Below are positions 36,507 to 47,679 of a stretch of DNA of 64,000 nucleotides, piece by piece (position 1 is the first letter of the stretch; each line of letters opens with the position of its first letter). Source of the stretch: Acidimicrobiales bacterium (GTDB lineage: Bacteria > Actinomycetota > Acidimicrobiia > Acidimicrobiales > JAHWLA01); NCBI GenBank assembly GCA_035536915.1, contig DATLNE010000020.1, forward strand, positions 15,044 to 79,043, written 5' to 3'. A model generated the notes under the pieces. It searched no databases, was not told the DNA's origin, and was given only the letters and a program-made list of their open reading frames with translations. The translations under genes were made by a program, and so were the position numbers.

Positions 36507-37082
36507 TCAGGGCGCCGTAGCAGCCACAGCGTCGTCGTCGACCACTGTCGTCTCCCGGTTGATCTCCGGATCGGTGAAGACGTCGAGGTCGTCGCGACTC
36601 TGGGTCGAGAACTCCGAGACGATCGCCCCTTCCGGGCCGGCTTGAAACCAGTGCAGCGTGTTCGGCGGGACTGTGTGCTGGTCGCCAGGCTGCAGGACGA
36701 CCTCGTGCCACACGGTGTAGGCACCTTTGTCAGCACGTGGCGGACGGCATACAGGGTCGGGCGTGGGGGCTCCCTCGGTGTAGAGGTAGACGGTGCCCTT
36801 GCGGCACCGGAAGGTTTCCTCCTTGCCCGGCGTGCCGCCGAAGGGCGGGTGCCGGTGCTCCGGGCAGGTCTGGCCCGGGAACAACACGATCTCCTTGGCA
36901 CACACCCGGTCCGTGTTGACGTACACGACGATCTCGAGGCCCGTCTCGTCGAGCTCGGAGAGCCCGCAGTCGACGACTTCGATGGCGTCCTTCTCGGCGG
37001 CGGTGAGCACGAAGCCCGCCTCCTCCAGCATCTGCGCGGCCCGGGATTGAGCGGCGCGCGCTTCCTTCTTGGCAACTACCAC
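36507..37082 (-). CDS. D-lyxose/D-mannose family sugar isomerase (cupin)
   Basis: Metal-binding cupin core [29 protein letters not shown] and [17 protein letters not shown] chose the GTG at 37082 (AGGAGG 11 nt upstream). The track start at 37202 overlaps the kinase gene. Confidence 0.8.
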
Positions 37083-37116
37083 GACGTGCGATTCCTCCTG
37101 TGCGATGTCCGTCAGG

Positions 37117-38121
37117 TCACCCGGTGGTGACCGAAAGCTCCTCGAAGGGCGGCAGGCGGTCGAGGCCGCCGACGCGGGCCGCGGCTGCATCGGCAGCCAC
37201 ATCGAGCGCGTCGCTCGGGCTCATGCCGGCAGTGATGCCGTAGAGCAAACCCGCGGCGGCCGCATCGCCTGCCCCGTTCGTACTGACCACCTCGACGGCA
37301 CGAGCCGGCGCGTGGAGCGCGCGATCGCACCACTGCTCGGCCGCCCTCGCCAACAGCGGACCCGCCCGCTCCATCCGTTCCCGTCCCGCCGTGCGCAGGT
37401 ACAGGCCGGCCGCGCCCGCCTTGACCATCACGACGGCGGCCCCGGCCGCCACCAAGTCGTCGGCCCACTGTGCAGCGGATCGGGCAGCACCCAGCGCGGA
37501 GGCGAGGTCGTCGACGCTGGGCGCGAACACGTCGACAAGCGGCAGCGCGGCGCGCAGCAACGCTTCCCAGTCGTGGCGGGCAGCCTGCGAGCTCGGGTCG
37601 ACAGTCGCCAGGTCCACCGACGTGGTGATGCCACGAGCGCGGGCTCGATCGAGCAATGCCGCCAACTGGCGACCGCCCTGCTCGTAAAGGCACGGCAGGA
37701 GCGTCGGGTAGCCGAGGTGGAGCACGTCGATGCCGGTCAGGTCGAGGTGGCGACCGTCGAAGTGGGCGTTCGCTCCCACGTGGTGCCAGAACGTCCTGTC
37801 GGCACCGGGAGGCTGCACGACGATCGAGTACGACGTGTTGCATCCCGGCAACGGGCGAATCCCGGTGGCATCGACGCCCTGCGTCCGCAGGAGGGAGCGC
37901 AAGAGCCGGCCGAGCTCGTCGTCGCCGACGTCTGCCGCCAGGCGAACGTCACCGCCGAGCGCAGCGAGGTCGAGCCCAGTGTTCGCCACGCACCCGCCCG
38001 GCCGCAGCGTCAACGGGCCCACGTCGAAAAGACGCCCGGGCAGAAGCTCGGCAGGACGTTCGTGGCGCGGCATCAGGTCGATGCACACGTGTCCAGCCAC
38101 CAGCGTCCGCACGAGGGCCAT
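37117..38121 (-). CDS. PfkB-family carbohydrate kinase
   Basis: [17 protein letters not shown]-terminal ATP/anion-hole motif [11 protein letters not shown]. The ATG at 38121 or the GTG at 38112 (leaderless model) may be the start. The track TTG at 38133 lies inside the operator. Confidence 0.85.
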
Positions 38122-38127
38122 TGTAAT

Positions 38128-38141
38128 TGACAACGTTGTCG
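38128..38141. promoter_or_regulatory. LacI-type operator copy c (TGACAACGTTGTCG)
   Basis: It lies in the 33-nt gap between the HelD stop (38155) and the kinase start (38121). A TACAAT -10-like hexamer (minus strand, 38125..38120) follows directly. Confidence 0.65.
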
Positions 38142-45654: not shown

Positions 45655-45677
45655 AGAACCGTCACCGTACCACCATA

Positions 45678-45691
45678 AGACAACGTTGTCA
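45678..45691. promoter_or_regulatory. LacI-type operator copy d (AGACAACGTTGTCA)
   Basis: It lies in the 34-nt gap upstream of the GH2 start (45654) and overlaps the stop codon (45689-45691) of the upstream oxidoreductase. A TATGGT hexamer follows on the minus strand. Confidence 0.65.
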
Positions 45692-46846
45692 GCGGGCGGG
45701 GCTGTCGAGCGGAGGACACGCGGCGTGCGTCTCGTGGGAGCGCAGTGCCGCCGCGAAGACCCGGTGGCTGTCGAGCGCTTCTGCCGGCGTCACGCACCCG
45801 AAGCGGTCGCCCAGCTGCCCGGCCCGTTCGGCGAGGAAGGCAGCCCACATCTGGAGGATCGCATCGGAGAACCCGAACTCGAAGATGCCACCGGTCACCG
45901 TCGGGAAGGCGGACTGGCTGCCCATCTCGACTTGTTGCCACACCTGCTCACCCTCGTCGACCTTCAGCCGCCAAAGCGTCTTGGGATACCGCGTGGAGAA
46001 CTCCACGCACCCGTCCAGTCCTCGCACCCTGAAGTAGAACGAGTTCTTCTCCCCCGGTGCGATGCGCTTCTGTTCGAGCGTCAACGGGAACCGGCCGTGA
46101 GCCTCGTCGTCGACGGTGCACACGAGGGTGGCGTTCTCGAAGGTGTCACACGGCACCCGTTCGACGGCGCCCTTGGAGCGGGGCCGCTCGTCGACGAGGT
46201 GCTGGAGCACGCCGTAGACGTGTTCGGGCAACCACCCCAGCCGCAGCGGCAGGTGAAGCGTGTGCATGCCCAGATCGCCCATGACGCCGATCTCCCCGCA
46301 GTGCTGCGCCTGGCGCTTCCAGTTGATCGGCTTGTCGAGGTCGTAGTCACTCGAATGGAGGAAGCCGCAGCCCGCGTCGACGATGCGGCCGAGGGCGCCC
46401 GAGCGGACGAGGTCGAACGCCTTCTGGGCGGCAGGGAAGAACGGCATCTCACTGGAGCAGCGCACGAAGACGTCGGGGTTCGCCTCGGCAACGGCGACGA
46501 TTCGGGCAGCGGCATCCAGGTCGATGCCGAACGGCTTTTCACCCAGCACGTCCTTGCCTGCGGTGATTGCCTCGACGTAGATCTCCTCGTGCAGGTGATG
46601 AGGGACGGCGATGTAGAGAACGTCGACCCCGTCGTCCTTCAACAGGTCGCGGTAGTCGGTCGTCTTCACCACGACGCTGTCGACCTTGTCGAACCAGTCG
46701 AGTGCGGCGGGGTTGGTGTCGCAGACGTGCGTCAGCCGCGGCCTCACCGGGTGGTCCTCCAGGGCGTCCCAACGGCCGATGGCGGCCGCCAGCTCCTTTC
46801 CCATCAACCCACCCCCGACGATGCCGATGTTGACCACCTGCGTCAC
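45689..46846 (-). CDS. Gfo/Idh/MocA family oxidoreductase
   Basis: The GTG at 46846 (GTGA overlap with the aldolase stop) gives VTQVVNIGIVGGGLMGKE. The EKP motif (VLGEKPF) is present. Confidence 0.9.
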   Translation of the reverse strand: MTQVVNIGIVGGGLMGKELAAAIGRWDALEDHPVRPRLTHVCDTNPAALDWFDKVDSVVVKTTDYRDLLKDDGVDVLYIAVPHHLHEEIYVEAITAGKDVLGEKPFGIDLDAAARIVAVAEANPDVFVRCSSEMPFFPAAQKAFDLVRSGALGRIVDAGCGFLHSSDYDLDKPINWKRQAQHCGEIGVMGDLGMHTLHLPLRLGWLPEHVYGVLQHLVDERPRSKGAVERVPCDTFENATLVCTVDDEAHGRFPLTLEQKRIAPGEKNSFYFRVRGLDGCVEFSTRYPKTLWRLKVDEGEQVWQQVEMGSQSAFPTVTGGIFEFGFSDAILQMWAAFLAERAGQLGDRFGCVTPAEALDSHRVFAAALRSHETHAACPPLDSPAR

Positions 46847-47679
46847 CGCACGTCCTCCAACAACTCGAGCGCCTTGTCGGCTGAGACGTTCTCGTGGAGG
46901 ACGGCCATGAGGGCACGGGTGATCGAAGCCGGGCGGGGGTGCTGGATGATGTTGCGCCCGTAGACGATGCCCGCCGCGCCTTGGGCCAGCACTGCTTCCG
47001 TGCGTCGCAGCAGGGTGGCGTCGTCCACCTTCCCGCCACCACGGACGAGCACGGGCACGCCCGCCGCCTCGACCACCCGGTGGTAGTCCTCGACATCGTC
47101 GGTCGGGTCGGCTTTCACGAGGTCCGCACCGAGCTCGCGCGCCTGGCGCACCAGCGCCACCACCTTGGTGGTGTCTCCGTCGACCATGTAGCCGCCCGCC
47201 TTGCTGTTGTCCTGCATGACGAGGGGCTCGATCATCAGTGGCATGGCGTAGCGATCGCACTCGGCACGCAGGTGCATGATGTTCTCGATGCACGCTTGGC
47301 GCACGTCGGGGCGGCCGGGCAGCTGGAACAGGTTCACGACGACGCAGACGGCGTCGAGTCGGACGGCGATCTCCACCGCGTCGGGGTACACGAGCGAGAA
47401 GAGGTGGTCGTCGAGCGGGCTCCCGTAGACGTTGGCGACATCCGTGCGCAGCACGAGCGCGGGCTTGTCCTTCCCTGGCAGGCCCTGCAAGAGAGGCGCC
47501 TGCCCCGGCGTGAGTTGGATGGCGTCGGGCGCGGCGTCGACCAGCGTGCGCACCGCCGCCCCCATGTCCTCGATGCCGGTCAGGAACGACGGCTCCCCGA
47601 AGAAACCGTGGTCGACGGCGACATCGAGGCACCGACCGGACACGGGGTTGACGAGCCTGTTGAGCCGGAATTGCTTCAT
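46843..47679 (-). CDS. class I aldolase (DeoC/LacD/FbaB-LsrF family)
   Basis: The ATG at 47679 gives MKQFRLNRLVNPVSGRCLDVAVDHG. The Schiff-base lysine context is GADLVKADPT, and the C-terminal phosphate-binding stretch is VLVRGGGK...GAAGIVYGRNI. Confidence 0.8.
   Translation of the reverse strand: MKQFRLNRLVNPVSGRCLDVAVDHGFFGEPSFLTGIEDMGAAVRTLVDAAPDAIQLTPGQAPLLQGLPGKDKPALVLRTDVANVYGSPLDDHLFSLVYPDAVEIAVRLDAVCVVVNLFQLPGRPDVRQACIENIMHLRAECDRYAMPLMIEPLVMQDNSKAGGYMVDGDTTKVVALVRQARELGADLVKADPTDDVEDYHRVVEAAGVPVLVRGGGKVDDATLLRRTEAVLAQGAAGIVYGRNIIQHPRPASITRALMAVLHENVSADKALELLEDVR

What the first reader, a model, noticed from the sequence alone, without database searches (positions are those of the whole stretch)
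36507..47679. A self-contained beta-mannoside to triose route via mannose isomerase, with every step placed behind an operator copy
The set comprises four enzymes:
- a cytoplasmic GH2 beta-mannosidase-like enzyme (43129..45654, no signal peptide);
- a cupin D-lyxose/D-mannose isomerase (36507..37082);
- a PfkB kinase (37117..38121);
- a class I DeoC/LacD-type aldolase (46843..47679).

From the established activities of these families, the logical chain is mannoside to mannose, mannose to fructose (isomerase), fructose to a fructose phosphate (kinase), then aldol cleavage. This bypasses the usual hexokinase and phosphomannose-isomerase entry.

The layout (glycosidase, aldose-ketose isomerase, PfkB kinase, class I aldolase) mirrors the sulfo-EMP pathway for sulfoquinovose (YihQ/S/V/T) with different folds at two steps.

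Three extra Gfo/Idh/MocA oxidoreductases and one xylose-isomerase-like TIM-barrel protein are co-regulated. This leaves open an alternative oxidative (3-keto-sugar / beta-elimination or C-glycoside-type) deglycosylation chemistry, which uses exactly those two families.
Basis: inference. Interest (0 to 1): 0.55.

Follow-up and report, generated by a model that had tools for sequence, protein, structure and literature searches.

The report
Conserved mannoside/ketose kinase-aldolase regulon
A soil actinobacterium places a beta-mannosidase-like enzyme, a lyxose/mannose isomerase, a sugar kinase, an aldolase and a tightly coupled dehydrogenase under one repressor; the core of this set recurs across many bacteria, and I found no paper that describes it, so it is a good candidate for an undescribed sugar breakdown route.

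Summary
**Observation: confirmed.** All four enzymes sit at the stated coordinates. The perfect palindrome GACAACGTTGTC occurs exactly four times in the 3.2 Mb genome. All four copies lie in this window, directly upstream of the PfkB-cupin unit, the GH2 gene, the aldolase-Gfo unit (shared with a divergent LacI gene) and a Liv-type ABC operon.

**Interpretation: partly supported.**
- The conserved core is not the four named enzymes. It is LacI + PfkB kinase | class I aldolase–Gfo/Idh/MocA, and the same 12-mer sits in the kinase|aldolase promoter region of 17 related actinobacterial loci.
- The 'extra' oxidoreductase next to the aldolase is that enzyme's most constant partner: 65 of 70 loci, and a GTGA start/stop overlap here.
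- In other genomes the same operator precedes a GH38 alpha-mannosidase or a GH32 fructosidase.
- This favours a mannose/fructose → ketose phosphate → DHAP + aldehyde route.
- Five genomes carry the triad but no lyxose-isomerase family member, so the isomerase is an optional entry step.
- The cupin keeps the Arg that its authors proposed as the cause of lyxose specificity in the Thermofilum enzyme.
- HelD is an interloper. An acyl-CoA synthetase and an F420 oxidoreductase are co-transcribed extras.

I found no paper describing this cassette. The scan has noted the same cassette on at least six other genomes.

The parts
35476..36504 (-). F420-dependent LLM-class oxidoreductase (TIGR03617 family), probably co-transcribed with PfkB-cupin
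   Evidence: NCBIfam TIGR03617 scores 482 bits against a cutoff of 278. Its ATG lies 2 nt after the cupin stop. No homologue was found in any related locus, so it is a local addition.
36507..37082 (-). Cupin D-lyxose/D-mannose-family aldose-ketose isomerase (YdaE/TsLI type)
   Evidence: PDB 7nzo E 2.6e-70 and 2y0o E 1.6e-65. All TsLI ligand residues (K62, H75, H77, K86, E88, H143, E156, D163) and R175 align identically. An AGGAGG ribosome-binding site lies 10 nt before the GTG start.
37117..38121 (-). PfkB-family sugar kinase of a divergent subfamily; substrate and phosphorylation position unknown
   Evidence: Pfam PfkB 118 bits. The best NCBIfam hit is IolC at 75 bits and the best PDB hit is KDG kinase at 9e-16, both far below any cutoff. 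Homologues of 43-57% identity lie next to the aldolase in 47 of 80 loci.
38129..38140 (.). Operator copy O1 (GACAACGTTGTC)
   Evidence: Perfect palindrome. It lies 7 nt upstream of the PfkB ATG and 14 nt after the HelD stop.
40562..41551 (-). Gfo/Idh/MocA oxidoreductase GfoC, last gene of the GH2 unit
   Evidence: Pfam. The best NCBIfam hit is D-xylose 1-dehydrogenase Gfo6 at 125 bits, below cutoff. Its ATG lies 10 nt after the ACS stop, with an AAGGGG ribosome-binding site.
41562..43112 (-). Acyl-CoA synthetase (PRK12406 subfamily) embedded in the GH2 unit
   Evidence: NCBIfam 753 bits against a cutoff of 701. It starts 10-16 nt after the GH2 stop. It is not conserved in related loci.
43129..45654 (-). 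Cytoplasmic GH2 enzyme of the beta-mannosidase subfamily
   Evidence: PDB beta-mannosidases at 1e-109 and 7e-88. WCGNNE aligns with the acid/base motif and the Glu of RFPDEGG aligns with the BtMan2A nucleophile motif RFMSEFG. Closest homologues are 50-55% identical and sit in Verrucomicrobiota and Lentisphaerae.
45679..45690 (.). Operator copy O2; overlaps the GfoB stop codon, 24 nt upstream of the GH2 ATG
45689..46846 (-). Gfo/Idh/MocA oxidoreductase GfoB, translationally coupled core partner of the aldolase
   Evidence: GTGA start/stop overlap with the aldolase. A homologue lies co-directionally within 600 nt of the aldolase in 65 of 70 loci, and within 60 nt in 59. Nearest structures are scyllo-inositol/L-glucose dehydrogenase 5ya8 and levoglucosan dehydrogenase 6a3f, about 1e-22.
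46843..47679 (-). Class I (Schiff-base) DhnA/LsrF/MJ0400-type aldolase
   Evidence: Pfam DeoC 124 bits. LsrF 1.4e-22 and MJ0400 3.5e-22; the Lys in GADLVK aligns with the LsrF and MJ0400 Schiff-base Lys. The family is 65-78% identical across Actinomycetota, Verrucomicrobiota, Chloroflexota and Myxococcota.
47702..47713 (.). Operator copy O3 in the aldolase/LacI divergent region, between the -35 and -10 hexamers of the only sigma-70-like promoter found
   Evidence: The promoter is ATGACA-18-TACGAT at 47715-47686.
47794..48816 (+). LacI-family repressor (start at TTG 47794 or ATG 47812)
   Evidence: Pfam LacI plus Peripla_BP_1/3. Orthologues of 54-60% identity lie beside the cassette in L001, L002 and L082.
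48847..49746 (-). Gfo/Idh/MocA oxidoreductase GfoA, last gene of the transporter operon
   Evidence: Pfam.
49754..57999 (-). Liv/HAAT-type ABC importer operon, including an MFS::ATPase fusion and a Peripla_BP_6 binding protein
   Evidence: Pfam. An earlier scan note describes it (e1-2076298).
58051..58062 (.). Operator copy O4, downstream of a TTGACA-17-TACGCT promoter-like site that I read by eye

Best explanation
This is a LacI-family regulon built round a widespread, experimentally uncharacterised sugar cassette.

**Shown**
- One repressor gene, and four identical operators that are unique in the genome, flank four transcription units.
- The repressor, the operator sequence, the PfkB kinase and the aldolase-Gfo pair are conserved together across Actinomycetota.

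**Inferred pathway**
1. A beta-mannoside is imported and cleaved in the cytoplasm by the GH2 enzyme.
2. The released manno/lyxo-configured aldose (most likely D-mannose) is isomerised by the Mn-cupin to the 2-ketose (D-fructose).
3. The PfkB kinase phosphorylates the ketose next to the keto group, giving a ketose 1-phosphate.
4. The class I Schiff-base aldolase splits this into DHAP and a C3 aldehyde (D-glyceraldehyde).
5. The translationally coupled Gfo/Idh/MocA enzyme oxidises or reduces that aldehyde. This is the role played by YihU, FucO, AldA or RhaW in the sulfo-EMP, fucose and rhamnose pathways.

The ketose is the common intermediate. The isomerase and the glycosidase are interchangeable entry modules: GH2 here, and GH38, GH32 or polyol dehydrogenases elsewhere.
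For: **Regulon**
- Four perfect operators exist in the genome and all are in this window.
- One sits between the -35 and -10 hexamers of the aldolase promoter.

**Conservation**
- The identical 12-mer lies in the PfkB|aldolase intergenic region of 17 loci from Microbacteriaceae, other Actinomycetota and a metagenome contig.
- In L001 (Streptomyces) it lies in the PfkB-GH38 intergenic region, directly before the GH38 alpha-mannosidase gene. In L002 it lies at the start of a GH32 gene.

**Core triad**
- Aldolase-Gfo pairing holds in 65 of 70 loci. PfkB is adjacent in 47 of 80.

**Isomerase-kinase-aldolase logic recurs with different parts**
- Closest cupin relative, L082: Gfo<-aldolase | PfkB->cupin->LacI, with a GH38 gene nearby.
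- Thioclava plasmid: aldolase-Gfo-isomerase-kinase joined by 4-nt overlaps, followed by a CUT2 sugar ABC transporter and LacI.
- Peat and soil contigs: cupin + PfkB + class II aldolase + an Aldolase_II-SDR fusion. I read this fusion as an aldolase with a built-in aldehyde dehydrogenase, like RhaEW (my own knowledge, not checked here).

**Other support**
- A GH2 homologue of 52% identity lies next to a PF07385 lyxose isomerase in L168.
- Catalytic residues of the cupin, GH2 enzyme and aldolase are intact.
- No ManA or type II phosphomannose isomerase was found above cutoff in a 99.5%-complete genome.
- Mannitol-dehydrogenase-family genes neighbour the triad in 11 of 57 long loci. This fits a ketose as the shared intermediate.
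Against: - No enzyme of the cassette has been assayed. The kinase's substrate and phosphorylation position, and the aldolase's substrate, are inferred only.
- TsLI, the closest characterised isomerase, works on mannose at under 2% of its lyxose rate. Arg175, which its authors proposed as the cause, is conserved here.
- GfoB's nearest structures oxidise ring hydroxyls of pyranoses or cyclitols, not open-chain aldehydes. Its assigned role is therefore the weakest step.
- Five triad-bearing genomes, including the Streptomyces genome with the operator-controlled GH38, have no lyxose-isomerase family member. Mannose cannot enter the triad by this isomerase in those genomes.
- The only transporter in the regulon is of the amino-acid (Liv/HAAT) type.
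- An acyl-CoA synthetase and an F420 oxidoreductase are co-transcribed and have no role in the model.
Confidence: 0.45

Rival explanations
1. Pentose version. The physiological substrate is D-lyxose or another small lyxo-configured sugar. The route would be lyxose → D-xylulose → xylulose 1-phosphate → DHAP + glycolaldehyde, with the Gfo enzyme acting on glycolaldehyde. The GH2 enzyme would be co-regulated but feed general metabolism.
For: - The cupin matches the lyxose-specific TsLI at E 2.6e-70 and keeps Arg175.
- An earlier scan note reports the cassette next to GlcD/GlcF-like genes in another genome (e1-4975680; not checked here).
Against: - By my own knowledge (not checked here), free D-lyxose is rare in nature.
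- The TsLI Km for lyxose is 74 mM.
- The regulon recruits mannosidases (GH2, GH38) and a fructosidase (GH32), all of which release hexoses.
Confidence: 0.12
2. Two independent modules under one repressor. Cupin + PfkB would simply give mannose → fructose → fructose 6-phosphate, as a mannose isomerase/fructokinase route. The aldolase-Gfo pair would process a different, unknown compound.
For: - PfkB-cupin and aldolase-Gfo are separate transcription units about 9 kb apart here.
- The aldolase-Gfo pair also occurs without PfkB, for example in Verrucomicrobiota, and sometimes next to an FGGY kinase instead.
- L094 and L097 carry the pair in addition to a class II aldolase set.
Against: - PfkB shares a divergent promoter and the operator with the aldolase in 17 loci, and is adjacent to it in 47 of 80.
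- This PfkB is not close to known fructokinases: NF006957 scores 50 bits against a cutoff of 450.
- Lyxose-isomerase cupins recur with an aldolase of either class.
Confidence: 0.15
3. Oxidative deglycosylation. Gfo/Idh/MocA enzymes would oxidise a glycoside at C3 and a xylose-isomerase-like TIM-barrel lyase would eliminate the aglycone, as in the C-glycoside, levoglucosan or Bacteroides 3-keto-glycoside pathways.
For: - There are three Gfo genes in the regulon.
- GfoB's nearest structures include levoglucosan dehydrogenase and, more weakly, a glucuronide 3-dehydrogenase.
- A GH2 homologue in L167 lies next to an AP_endonuc_2 gene.
Against: - The only TIM-barrel gene lies 23 kb away, behind a one-mismatch site that is near genomic background.
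- No TIM-barrel gene is a conserved neighbour of the triad: 0 of 57 long aldolase loci, and 2 of 41 cupin loci at about 30% identity.
- Scores for the glycoside 3-dehydrogenase and levoglucosan dehydrogenase models are far below cutoff.
- A hydrolytic GH2 enzyme with intact catalytic residues is present.
Confidence: 0.05
4. Glycolipid reading (an extension, not exclusive). In this organism the regulon would serve an acylated mannoside. Esterases strip acyl groups, the acyl-CoA synthetase activates them for the flanking beta-oxidation-type genes, and the sugar goes through the cassette.
For: - The acyl-CoA synthetase is translationally close-coupled between the GH2 gene and GfoC.
- A carboxylesterase gene (Pfam) lies in a plus-strand gene group that starts divergently from operator O4.
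- The array continues without a strand change into MaoC, CoA-transferase, thiolase and acyl-CoA dehydrogenase genes.
Against: - None of these lipid genes is conserved with the cassette elsewhere.
- The esterase side carries only a half-site.
- Co-directional packing alone is weak evidence.
Confidence: 0.15

Closest known systems
Sulfo-EMP pathway of E. coli (YihQ/R/S/V/T/U)
   Same: - Same logic: glycosidase, aldose-ketose isomerase, PfkB kinase (YihV), FbaB-like class I aldolase (YihT) giving DHAP plus a C3 aldehyde, and a dedicated aldehyde oxidoreductase (PMC9594981, PMC8873060).
- Related cassettes also carry a mutarotase-like gene (DUF4432), as sulfo-EMP carries YihR.
   Different: - The glycosidase is GH2, not GH31.
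- The isomerase is a Mn-cupin, not the AGE-fold YihS.
- The oxidoreductase is Gfo/Idh/MocA, not a beta-hydroxyacid dehydrogenase.
- There is no sulfonate exporter and no CsqR regulator.
- It is also not sulfo-EMP2, which uses a FucI-like isomerase, a PfkA-type kinase and a class II aldolase.
L-rhamnose / L-fucose phosphorylated pathways (RhaA/B/D + RhaW or FucO/AldA; RhaEW fusion)
   Same: - The same isomerase → 1-kinase → DHAP aldolase → aldehyde oxidoreductase sequence (my own knowledge of these pathways, not checked here).
- The Aldolase_II-SDR fusion seen in the class II variant of the cupin cluster parallels the aldolase-Gfo coupling here.
   Different: All four enzyme families differ. 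No deoxy-sugar-specific glycosidase is present. The substrate here is unknown.
D-lyxose isomerases TsLI (PDB 7NZO) and B. subtilis YdaE (2Y0O); E. coli O157 EcSI cluster
   Same: - Same cupin family, with all metal and sugar ligands conserved.
   Different: - The papers read here treat these enzymes as biocatalysts and define no pathway.
- TsLI is lyxose-specific, while other lyxose isomerases are reported to act on D-mannose too.
- The enzyme here has not been assayed.
Inositol lower pathway IolB (cupin isomerase) - IolC (PfkB) - IolJ
   Same: - A cupin aldose-ketose isomerase, a PfkB kinase and a DHAP-forming aldolase (pathway from my own knowledge, not checked here).
- The PfkB kinase's best NCBIfam hit is IolC, and the aldolase weakly hits the Cgl0159 family.
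   Different: - Scores are far below cutoffs: 75 bits against 300, and 25.5 against 27.
- The cupin belongs to the lyxose-isomerase family, not the KduI/IolB family.
- There are no IolD, IolE or IolA genes.

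Membership tests
D-lyxose/D-mannose isomerase family (YdaE/TsLI-type cupin) | Mn ligands and sugar-binding residues (TsLI K62, H75, H77, K86, E88, H143, E156, D163) | tested here: met
   A gap-free alignment to 7nzo over residues 4-178 shows every listed residue identical (residue list from PMC8378251).
D-lyxose/D-mannose isomerase family (YdaE/TsLI-type cupin) | Activity on D-mannose, as opposed to D-lyxose only | not testable with these tools
   The TsLI Arg175 equivalent is present (motif EINRET). Its authors link this residue to the exclusion of hexoses. An assay is needed.
GH2 beta-mannosidase subfamily | Acid/base Glu in an NE motif, nucleophile Glu, and the Mannosidase_ig domain | tested here: met
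   WCGNNE and the Glu of RFPDEGG align with the BtMan2A motifs WCGNNE and RFMSEFG. Pfam Mannosidase_ig scores 38 bits. E is 1e-109 to 5n6u.
GH2 beta-mannosidase subfamily | Hydrolysis of beta-mannosides | not testable with these tools
   The subfamily also borders the exo-beta-glucosaminidases (2vzo, 5e-22). A pNP-glycoside panel is needed.
PfkB carbohydrate kinases | Family profile match and the GAGD catalytic-loop motif | tested here: met
   Pfam 118 bits. NGAGD is present near the C-terminus. No equivalog model is reached.
Class I DhnA/LsrF/ADH-synthase-type aldolases (PF01791) | Schiff-base lysine on the strand equivalent to LsrF K203 / MJ0400 K184 | tested here: met
   GADLVK aligns with LsrF AQIIK and MJ0400 GADIVK. 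The deposited LsrF variant has Ala at this position. The residue numbers are from my own knowledge, not checked here.
Sulfo-EMP pathway | GH31 sulfoquinovosidase, YihS-type isomerase, sulfonate export and SLA reductase or dehydrogenase | tested here: not met
   Pfam and NCBIfam scans of the window found none of these families. Only the kinase and aldolase folds are shared.
3-keto-glycoside / C-glycoside deglycosylation systems | A Gfo-type 3-dehydrogenase with an adjacent xylose-isomerase-like TIM-barrel lyase | tested here: not met
   The TIM-barrel gene is 23 kb away, behind an imperfect site. It is not a conserved neighbour. The BT_2158 and levoglucosan dehydrogenase models score far below cutoff.
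LacI-family repressor regulon | A palindromic operator repeated before the target units and conserved with the regulator in relatives | tested here: met
   The four copies are unique in the genome. The identical 12-mer occurs in 22 related loci beside orthologous genes.

The most novel reading that the evidence does not exclude
The aldolase-like protein would not be a plain aldolase. It would be an LsrF-type, CoA-dependent thiolase working with its coupled Gfo dehydrogenase.

- The ketose 1-phosphate would be oxidised at C4 to a 2,4-diketone.
- That diketone would be cleaved thiolytically to DHAP plus an acyl-CoA (glyceroyl-, glycolyl- or lactoyl-CoA).
- This would conserve a thioester, as LsrF does with phospho-AI-2 (LsrF mechanism from my own knowledge, not checked here).
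- It would be the functional twin of the alternative cupin-kinase clusters that carry an E1/E2 lipoyl dehydrogenase complex.
- It would give D-lyxose-isomerase-family enzymes a physiological pathway.
Probability: 0.08. Interest if true: 0.8.

Novelty: new variant of a known kind. Interest (0 to 1): 0.5.

Why it matters
- The papers I read on YdaE/TsLI-type lyxose isomerases treat them as rare-sugar biocatalysts and define no physiological pathway.
- The isomerase has more than 7,900 relatives at E<1e-30. The aldolase family has more than 500 relatives and keeps its Gfo partner in 65 of 70 sampled loci. Both span several phyla.
- Here, and in relatives, the genes sit in a clean regulon with an invariant operator. 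In three genomes the operator also precedes a mannosidase- or fructosidase-type gene (GH2 here, GH38, GH32).
- This makes a specific, testable proposal: a non-PTS, phosphomannose-isomerase-independent route from mannose or fructose through a ketose 1-phosphate to trioses. That would be a bacterial counterpart of liver fructolysis and of sulfo-EMP.
- Cultivable organisms carry the same regulon and can be used to test it.
- If the Gfo/aldolase pair does something other than aldehyde handling, a new cleavage chemistry is possible.

Tried and rejected
- **Known sulfoquinovose pathways.** Read PMC8873060, PMC10755693, PMC9594981 and PMC12890257. Sulfo-EMP, sulfo-EMP2, sulfo-TAL and sulfo-TK use other isomerase, kinase or aldolase families. 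The GH188 NAD-dependent sulfoquinovosidase SqgA is compared structurally with GH109 enzymes in PMC10755693 and was not tied to GfoB. This reading is rejected.
- **Literature searches.** Searches for the cassette, for DUF4432, for 5-keto-fructose kinase/aldolase and for LsrF-like thiolases found nothing relevant. One search failed on syntax.
- **S. meliloti pSymB.** The aldolase homologue (57% identity) sits in a different operon without a Gfo gene, so it is not informative.
- **Cupin in relatives.** Not found in 200 other genomes of the same class. Not found in five triad-bearing genomes, either with the protein or with PF07385.
- **Sequencing runs.** Only a soil metagenome that may be the source of this DNA was listed. 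No RNA holder was listed, so co-induction could not be examined.
- **Terminators.** No convincing intrinsic terminator was found between the units.
- **Jobs not run.** I did not run structure or complex predictions, because I make no binding claim.
- **Failed call.** One Pfam call failed on wrong coordinates.

Full report
**1. What is there**

The window has about 70% G+C. An earlier scan note, which I did not check, assigns it to an Acidimicrobiia genome. The genome is 3.23 Mb and 99.5% complete. The DNA is held by a soil metagenome run that may be its source.

Gene calls come from GC3 frame analysis, Pfam and NCBIfam. Junctions were read directly from the sequence. They give this minus-strand order, from high to low coordinate:

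- Operator O4 (58051), then the Liv/HAAT-type ABC operon (57999-49754), then GfoA (49746-48847).
- LacI on the plus strand (about 47794-48816), divergent from the next unit.
- O3 (47702), then the aldolase (47679-46843), then GfoB (46846-45689), joined by a GTGA overlap.
- O2 (45679, overlapping the GfoB stop), then GH2 (45654-43129), the acyl-CoA synthetase (43112-41562) and GfoC (41551-40562), with 10-16 nt gaps.
- A 120-nt spacer containing an inverted repeat, then HelD/HelR (40440-38155).
- O1 (38129), then PfkB (38121-37117), the cupin (37082-36507) and an F420-dependent LLM oxidoreductase (36504-35476, 2-nt gap).
- The array then continues into MaoC, CoA-transferase, SDR, DUF35/thiolase and acyl-CoA dehydrogenase genes.

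**2.

- The cupin matches the Thermofilum D-lyxose isomerase (7nzo, E 2.6e-70) and B. subtilis YdaE.
- The GH2 enzyme matches solved beta-mannosidases (1e-109 and 7e-88), with the NE acid/base and the nucleophile Glu aligned. It has no signal-like N-terminus.
- The aldolase is a DhnA/LsrF/MJ0400-type class I enzyme with the Schiff-base Lys in place.
- The kinase is a PfkB member that reaches no named subfamily.
- GACAACGTTGTC is perfect at four sites in the window. These are the only four in the whole genome. Each lies 7-51 nt upstream of a start codon.
- O3 lies between the -35 and -10 hexamers of the one sigma-70-like promoter the scan found.

**3. What comparison adds**

*(a) The aldolase family.* It is large and strongly conserved, at 65-78% identity across Actinomycetota, Verrucomicrobiota, Chloroflexota and Myxococcota.
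- Among 80 loci, a GfoB homologue follows the aldolase co-directionally in 65 of the 70 loci with room for it, and within 60 nt in 59.
- A homologue of this PfkB kinase is adjacent in 47 of 80, and a LacI gene is present in 32.
- HelD and the LLM gene were found in none of these loci. The acyl-CoA synthetase appeared only as remote 26-29% hits in two. This cupin appeared in one, and a GH2 gene only as 26-28% relatives in five.

*(b) The operator travels with the genes.* The identical 12-mer occurs in 22 related loci.
- In 17 of them it lies in the kinase|aldolase intergenic region.
- In Streptomyces sp. ISL-100 (L001) two copies lie between PfkB and a GH38 alpha-mannosidase gene (one 7 nt before it), and one lies before a DUF4432 mutarotase-like gene.
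- In L002 one copy sits at the start of a GH32 gene.
- In L030 one copy lies between an SMP-30 lactonase gene and a CUT1 binding-protein gene.
- Others precede LacI genes.
- The same repressor/operator pair therefore controls the triad together with different hexose-releasing glycosidases in different genomes.

*(c) The cupin.* It has more than 7,900 relatives at E<1e-30, but none was found in 200 other genomes of its own class.
- Its closest relative (L082, 80% identity) lies in Gfo<-aldolase | PfkB->cupin->LacI, with a GH38 gene nearby.
- Many other close relatives pair with a second PfkB type, a class II aldolase, an E1/E2 lipoyl dehydrogenase set and an Aldolase_II-SDR fusion that I read as RhaEW-like.
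- A Thioclava plasmid carries aldolase-Gfo-isomerase-kinase joined by 4-nt overlaps. A CUT2 monosaccharide ABC transporter and a LacI gene follow.

*(d) The GH2 enzyme.* A 52% homologue lies divergently next to a PF07385 lyxose isomerase gene (L168). Another lies next to a GH20 gene.

*(e) Phosphomannose isomerase.* No ManA and no type II phosphomannose isomerase above cutoff was found in this genome.

*(f) Triad without isomerase.* Five genomes that carry the triad with the same operator have no lyxose-isomerase family member, whether searched with the protein or with the Pfam model.

**4. Reading**

The conserved unit is repressor + kinase + aldolase + Gfo. The isomerase and the glycosidase are accessory entry steps.

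Lyxose-isomerase cupins are paired repeatedly with a PfkB kinase and an aldolase of either class. They also sit beside an oxidoreductase that is either coupled (Gfo) or fused (SDR) to the aldolase. This supports a route of aldose → ketose → ketose 1-phosphate → DHAP + aldehyde → oxidoreduction. That is the logic of the rhamnose, fucose and sulfo-EMP pathways (PMC9594981).

The operator-linked glycosidase families (GH2, GH38, GH32) and the neighbouring mannitol-dehydrogenase-family genes point to mannose and fructose as the likeliest sugars.

I put this model at 0.45. Three things lower it:
- Nothing has been assayed.
- TsLI barely turns over mannose, and its Arg175 is conserved here.
- GfoB resembles ring-hydroxyl dehydrogenases (5ya8 and 6a3f).

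**5. Rivals**

- Pentose (lyxose) version: 0.12.
- Two unrelated modules under one repressor: 0.15.
- Oxidative 3-keto deglycosylation: 0.05. It is disfavoured because the TIM-barrel gene is distant, lies behind an imperfect site and is not a conserved neighbour.
- A local extension to acylated mannosides: 0.15. This is suggested by the embedded acyl-CoA synthetase and the divergent esterase gene group.
- The most novel reading still open is an LsrF-like thiolytic cleavage after Gfo oxidation, giving DHAP plus an acyl-CoA: 0.08.

**6. Known or new**

The cassette is not sulfo-EMP, sulfo-EMP2, or the inositol, rhamnose or fucose pathways (see the membership tests). I found no paper describing it.

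Earlier readers of this scan noted the same aldolase-Gfo-cupin-PfkB cassette on at least six other genomes. One note had a beta-mannosidase-like GH2 enzyme and another had GH92 enzymes. Those notes are unchecked leads. I re-observed the E1/E2 variant and the GH38, GH2 and DUF4432 associations independently, in other loci.

**Verdict.** This is a real, conserved and uncharacterised variant of a known pathway design. It is moderately interesting and directly testable in cultivable carriers.

Noticed in passing
window 40441-40561 and 38155-40440: HelD/HelR-type RNA polymerase recycling ATPase (NCBIfam HelR 538 bits, below the 1100 cutoff). It is preceded by the imperfect inverted repeat GGCGTTGCG-CCA-CGCAAGCGCC, which by my recollection resembles rifamycin-associated elements. 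It is wedged between two operator-controlled sugar units and is absent from all related loci.
   Followed up: partly
window 35476-36504: A TIGR03617-family F420-dependent LLM oxidoreductase starts 2 nt after the cupin stop. It is therefore probably co-transcribed with the kinase and isomerase. It is not found beside the cassette elsewhere, and its role is unknown.
   Followed up: partly
window 17856-18690 (-) and 18711-19565 (+): A PhyH-family dioxygenase gene is 66% identical to the PhyH gene next to the aldolase-Gfo pair in L082 or L001. A divergent AraC gene is 42% identical to the AraC gene of L001. An AraC|PhyH pair is thus a recurrent neighbour of the cassette, and here it lies about 19 kb away.
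   Followed up: partly
L083-L091, L094-L097, L099, L101, L163 (metagenome contigs): A variant cluster carries the cupin, a second PfkB type, a class II F_bP_aldolase, E1alpha/E1beta/E2 of an acetoin- or pyruvate-dehydrogenase type, an Aldolase_II-SDR fusion and a SorC regulator. L094 and L097 also carry the class I aldolase-Gfo pair.
   Followed up: partly
L171 (Thioclava sp. FTW29 plasmid NZ_CP135446.1) 9001-18534: A complete, annotated operon runs aldolase, Gfo, D-lyxose/D-mannose isomerase and kinase, all joined by 4-nt overlaps. A CUT2-type sugar ABC transporter and a LacI gene follow. This is a cultivable test system.
   Followed up: no
window 43129-45654: The closest homologues of the GH2 enzyme (50-55% identity) are from Verrucomicrobiota, Lentisphaerae and Tepidisphaeraceae, not Actinomycetota. 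The cupin was not found in 200 genomes of the same class. The sugar genes therefore look horizontally acquired.
   Followed up: partly
whole genome G000: No type I (TIGR00218) phosphomannose isomerase and no type II (PF01050) one above cutoff was found in a 99.5%-complete genome. This leaves open how GDP-mannose would be made.
   Followed up: partly
window 58140-58160: A half-site (ACGTTGTC within GTCTTACGTTGTCAA) lies near the start of the divergent oxidoreductase/esterase genes. Only the right half matches the operator.
   Followed up: no
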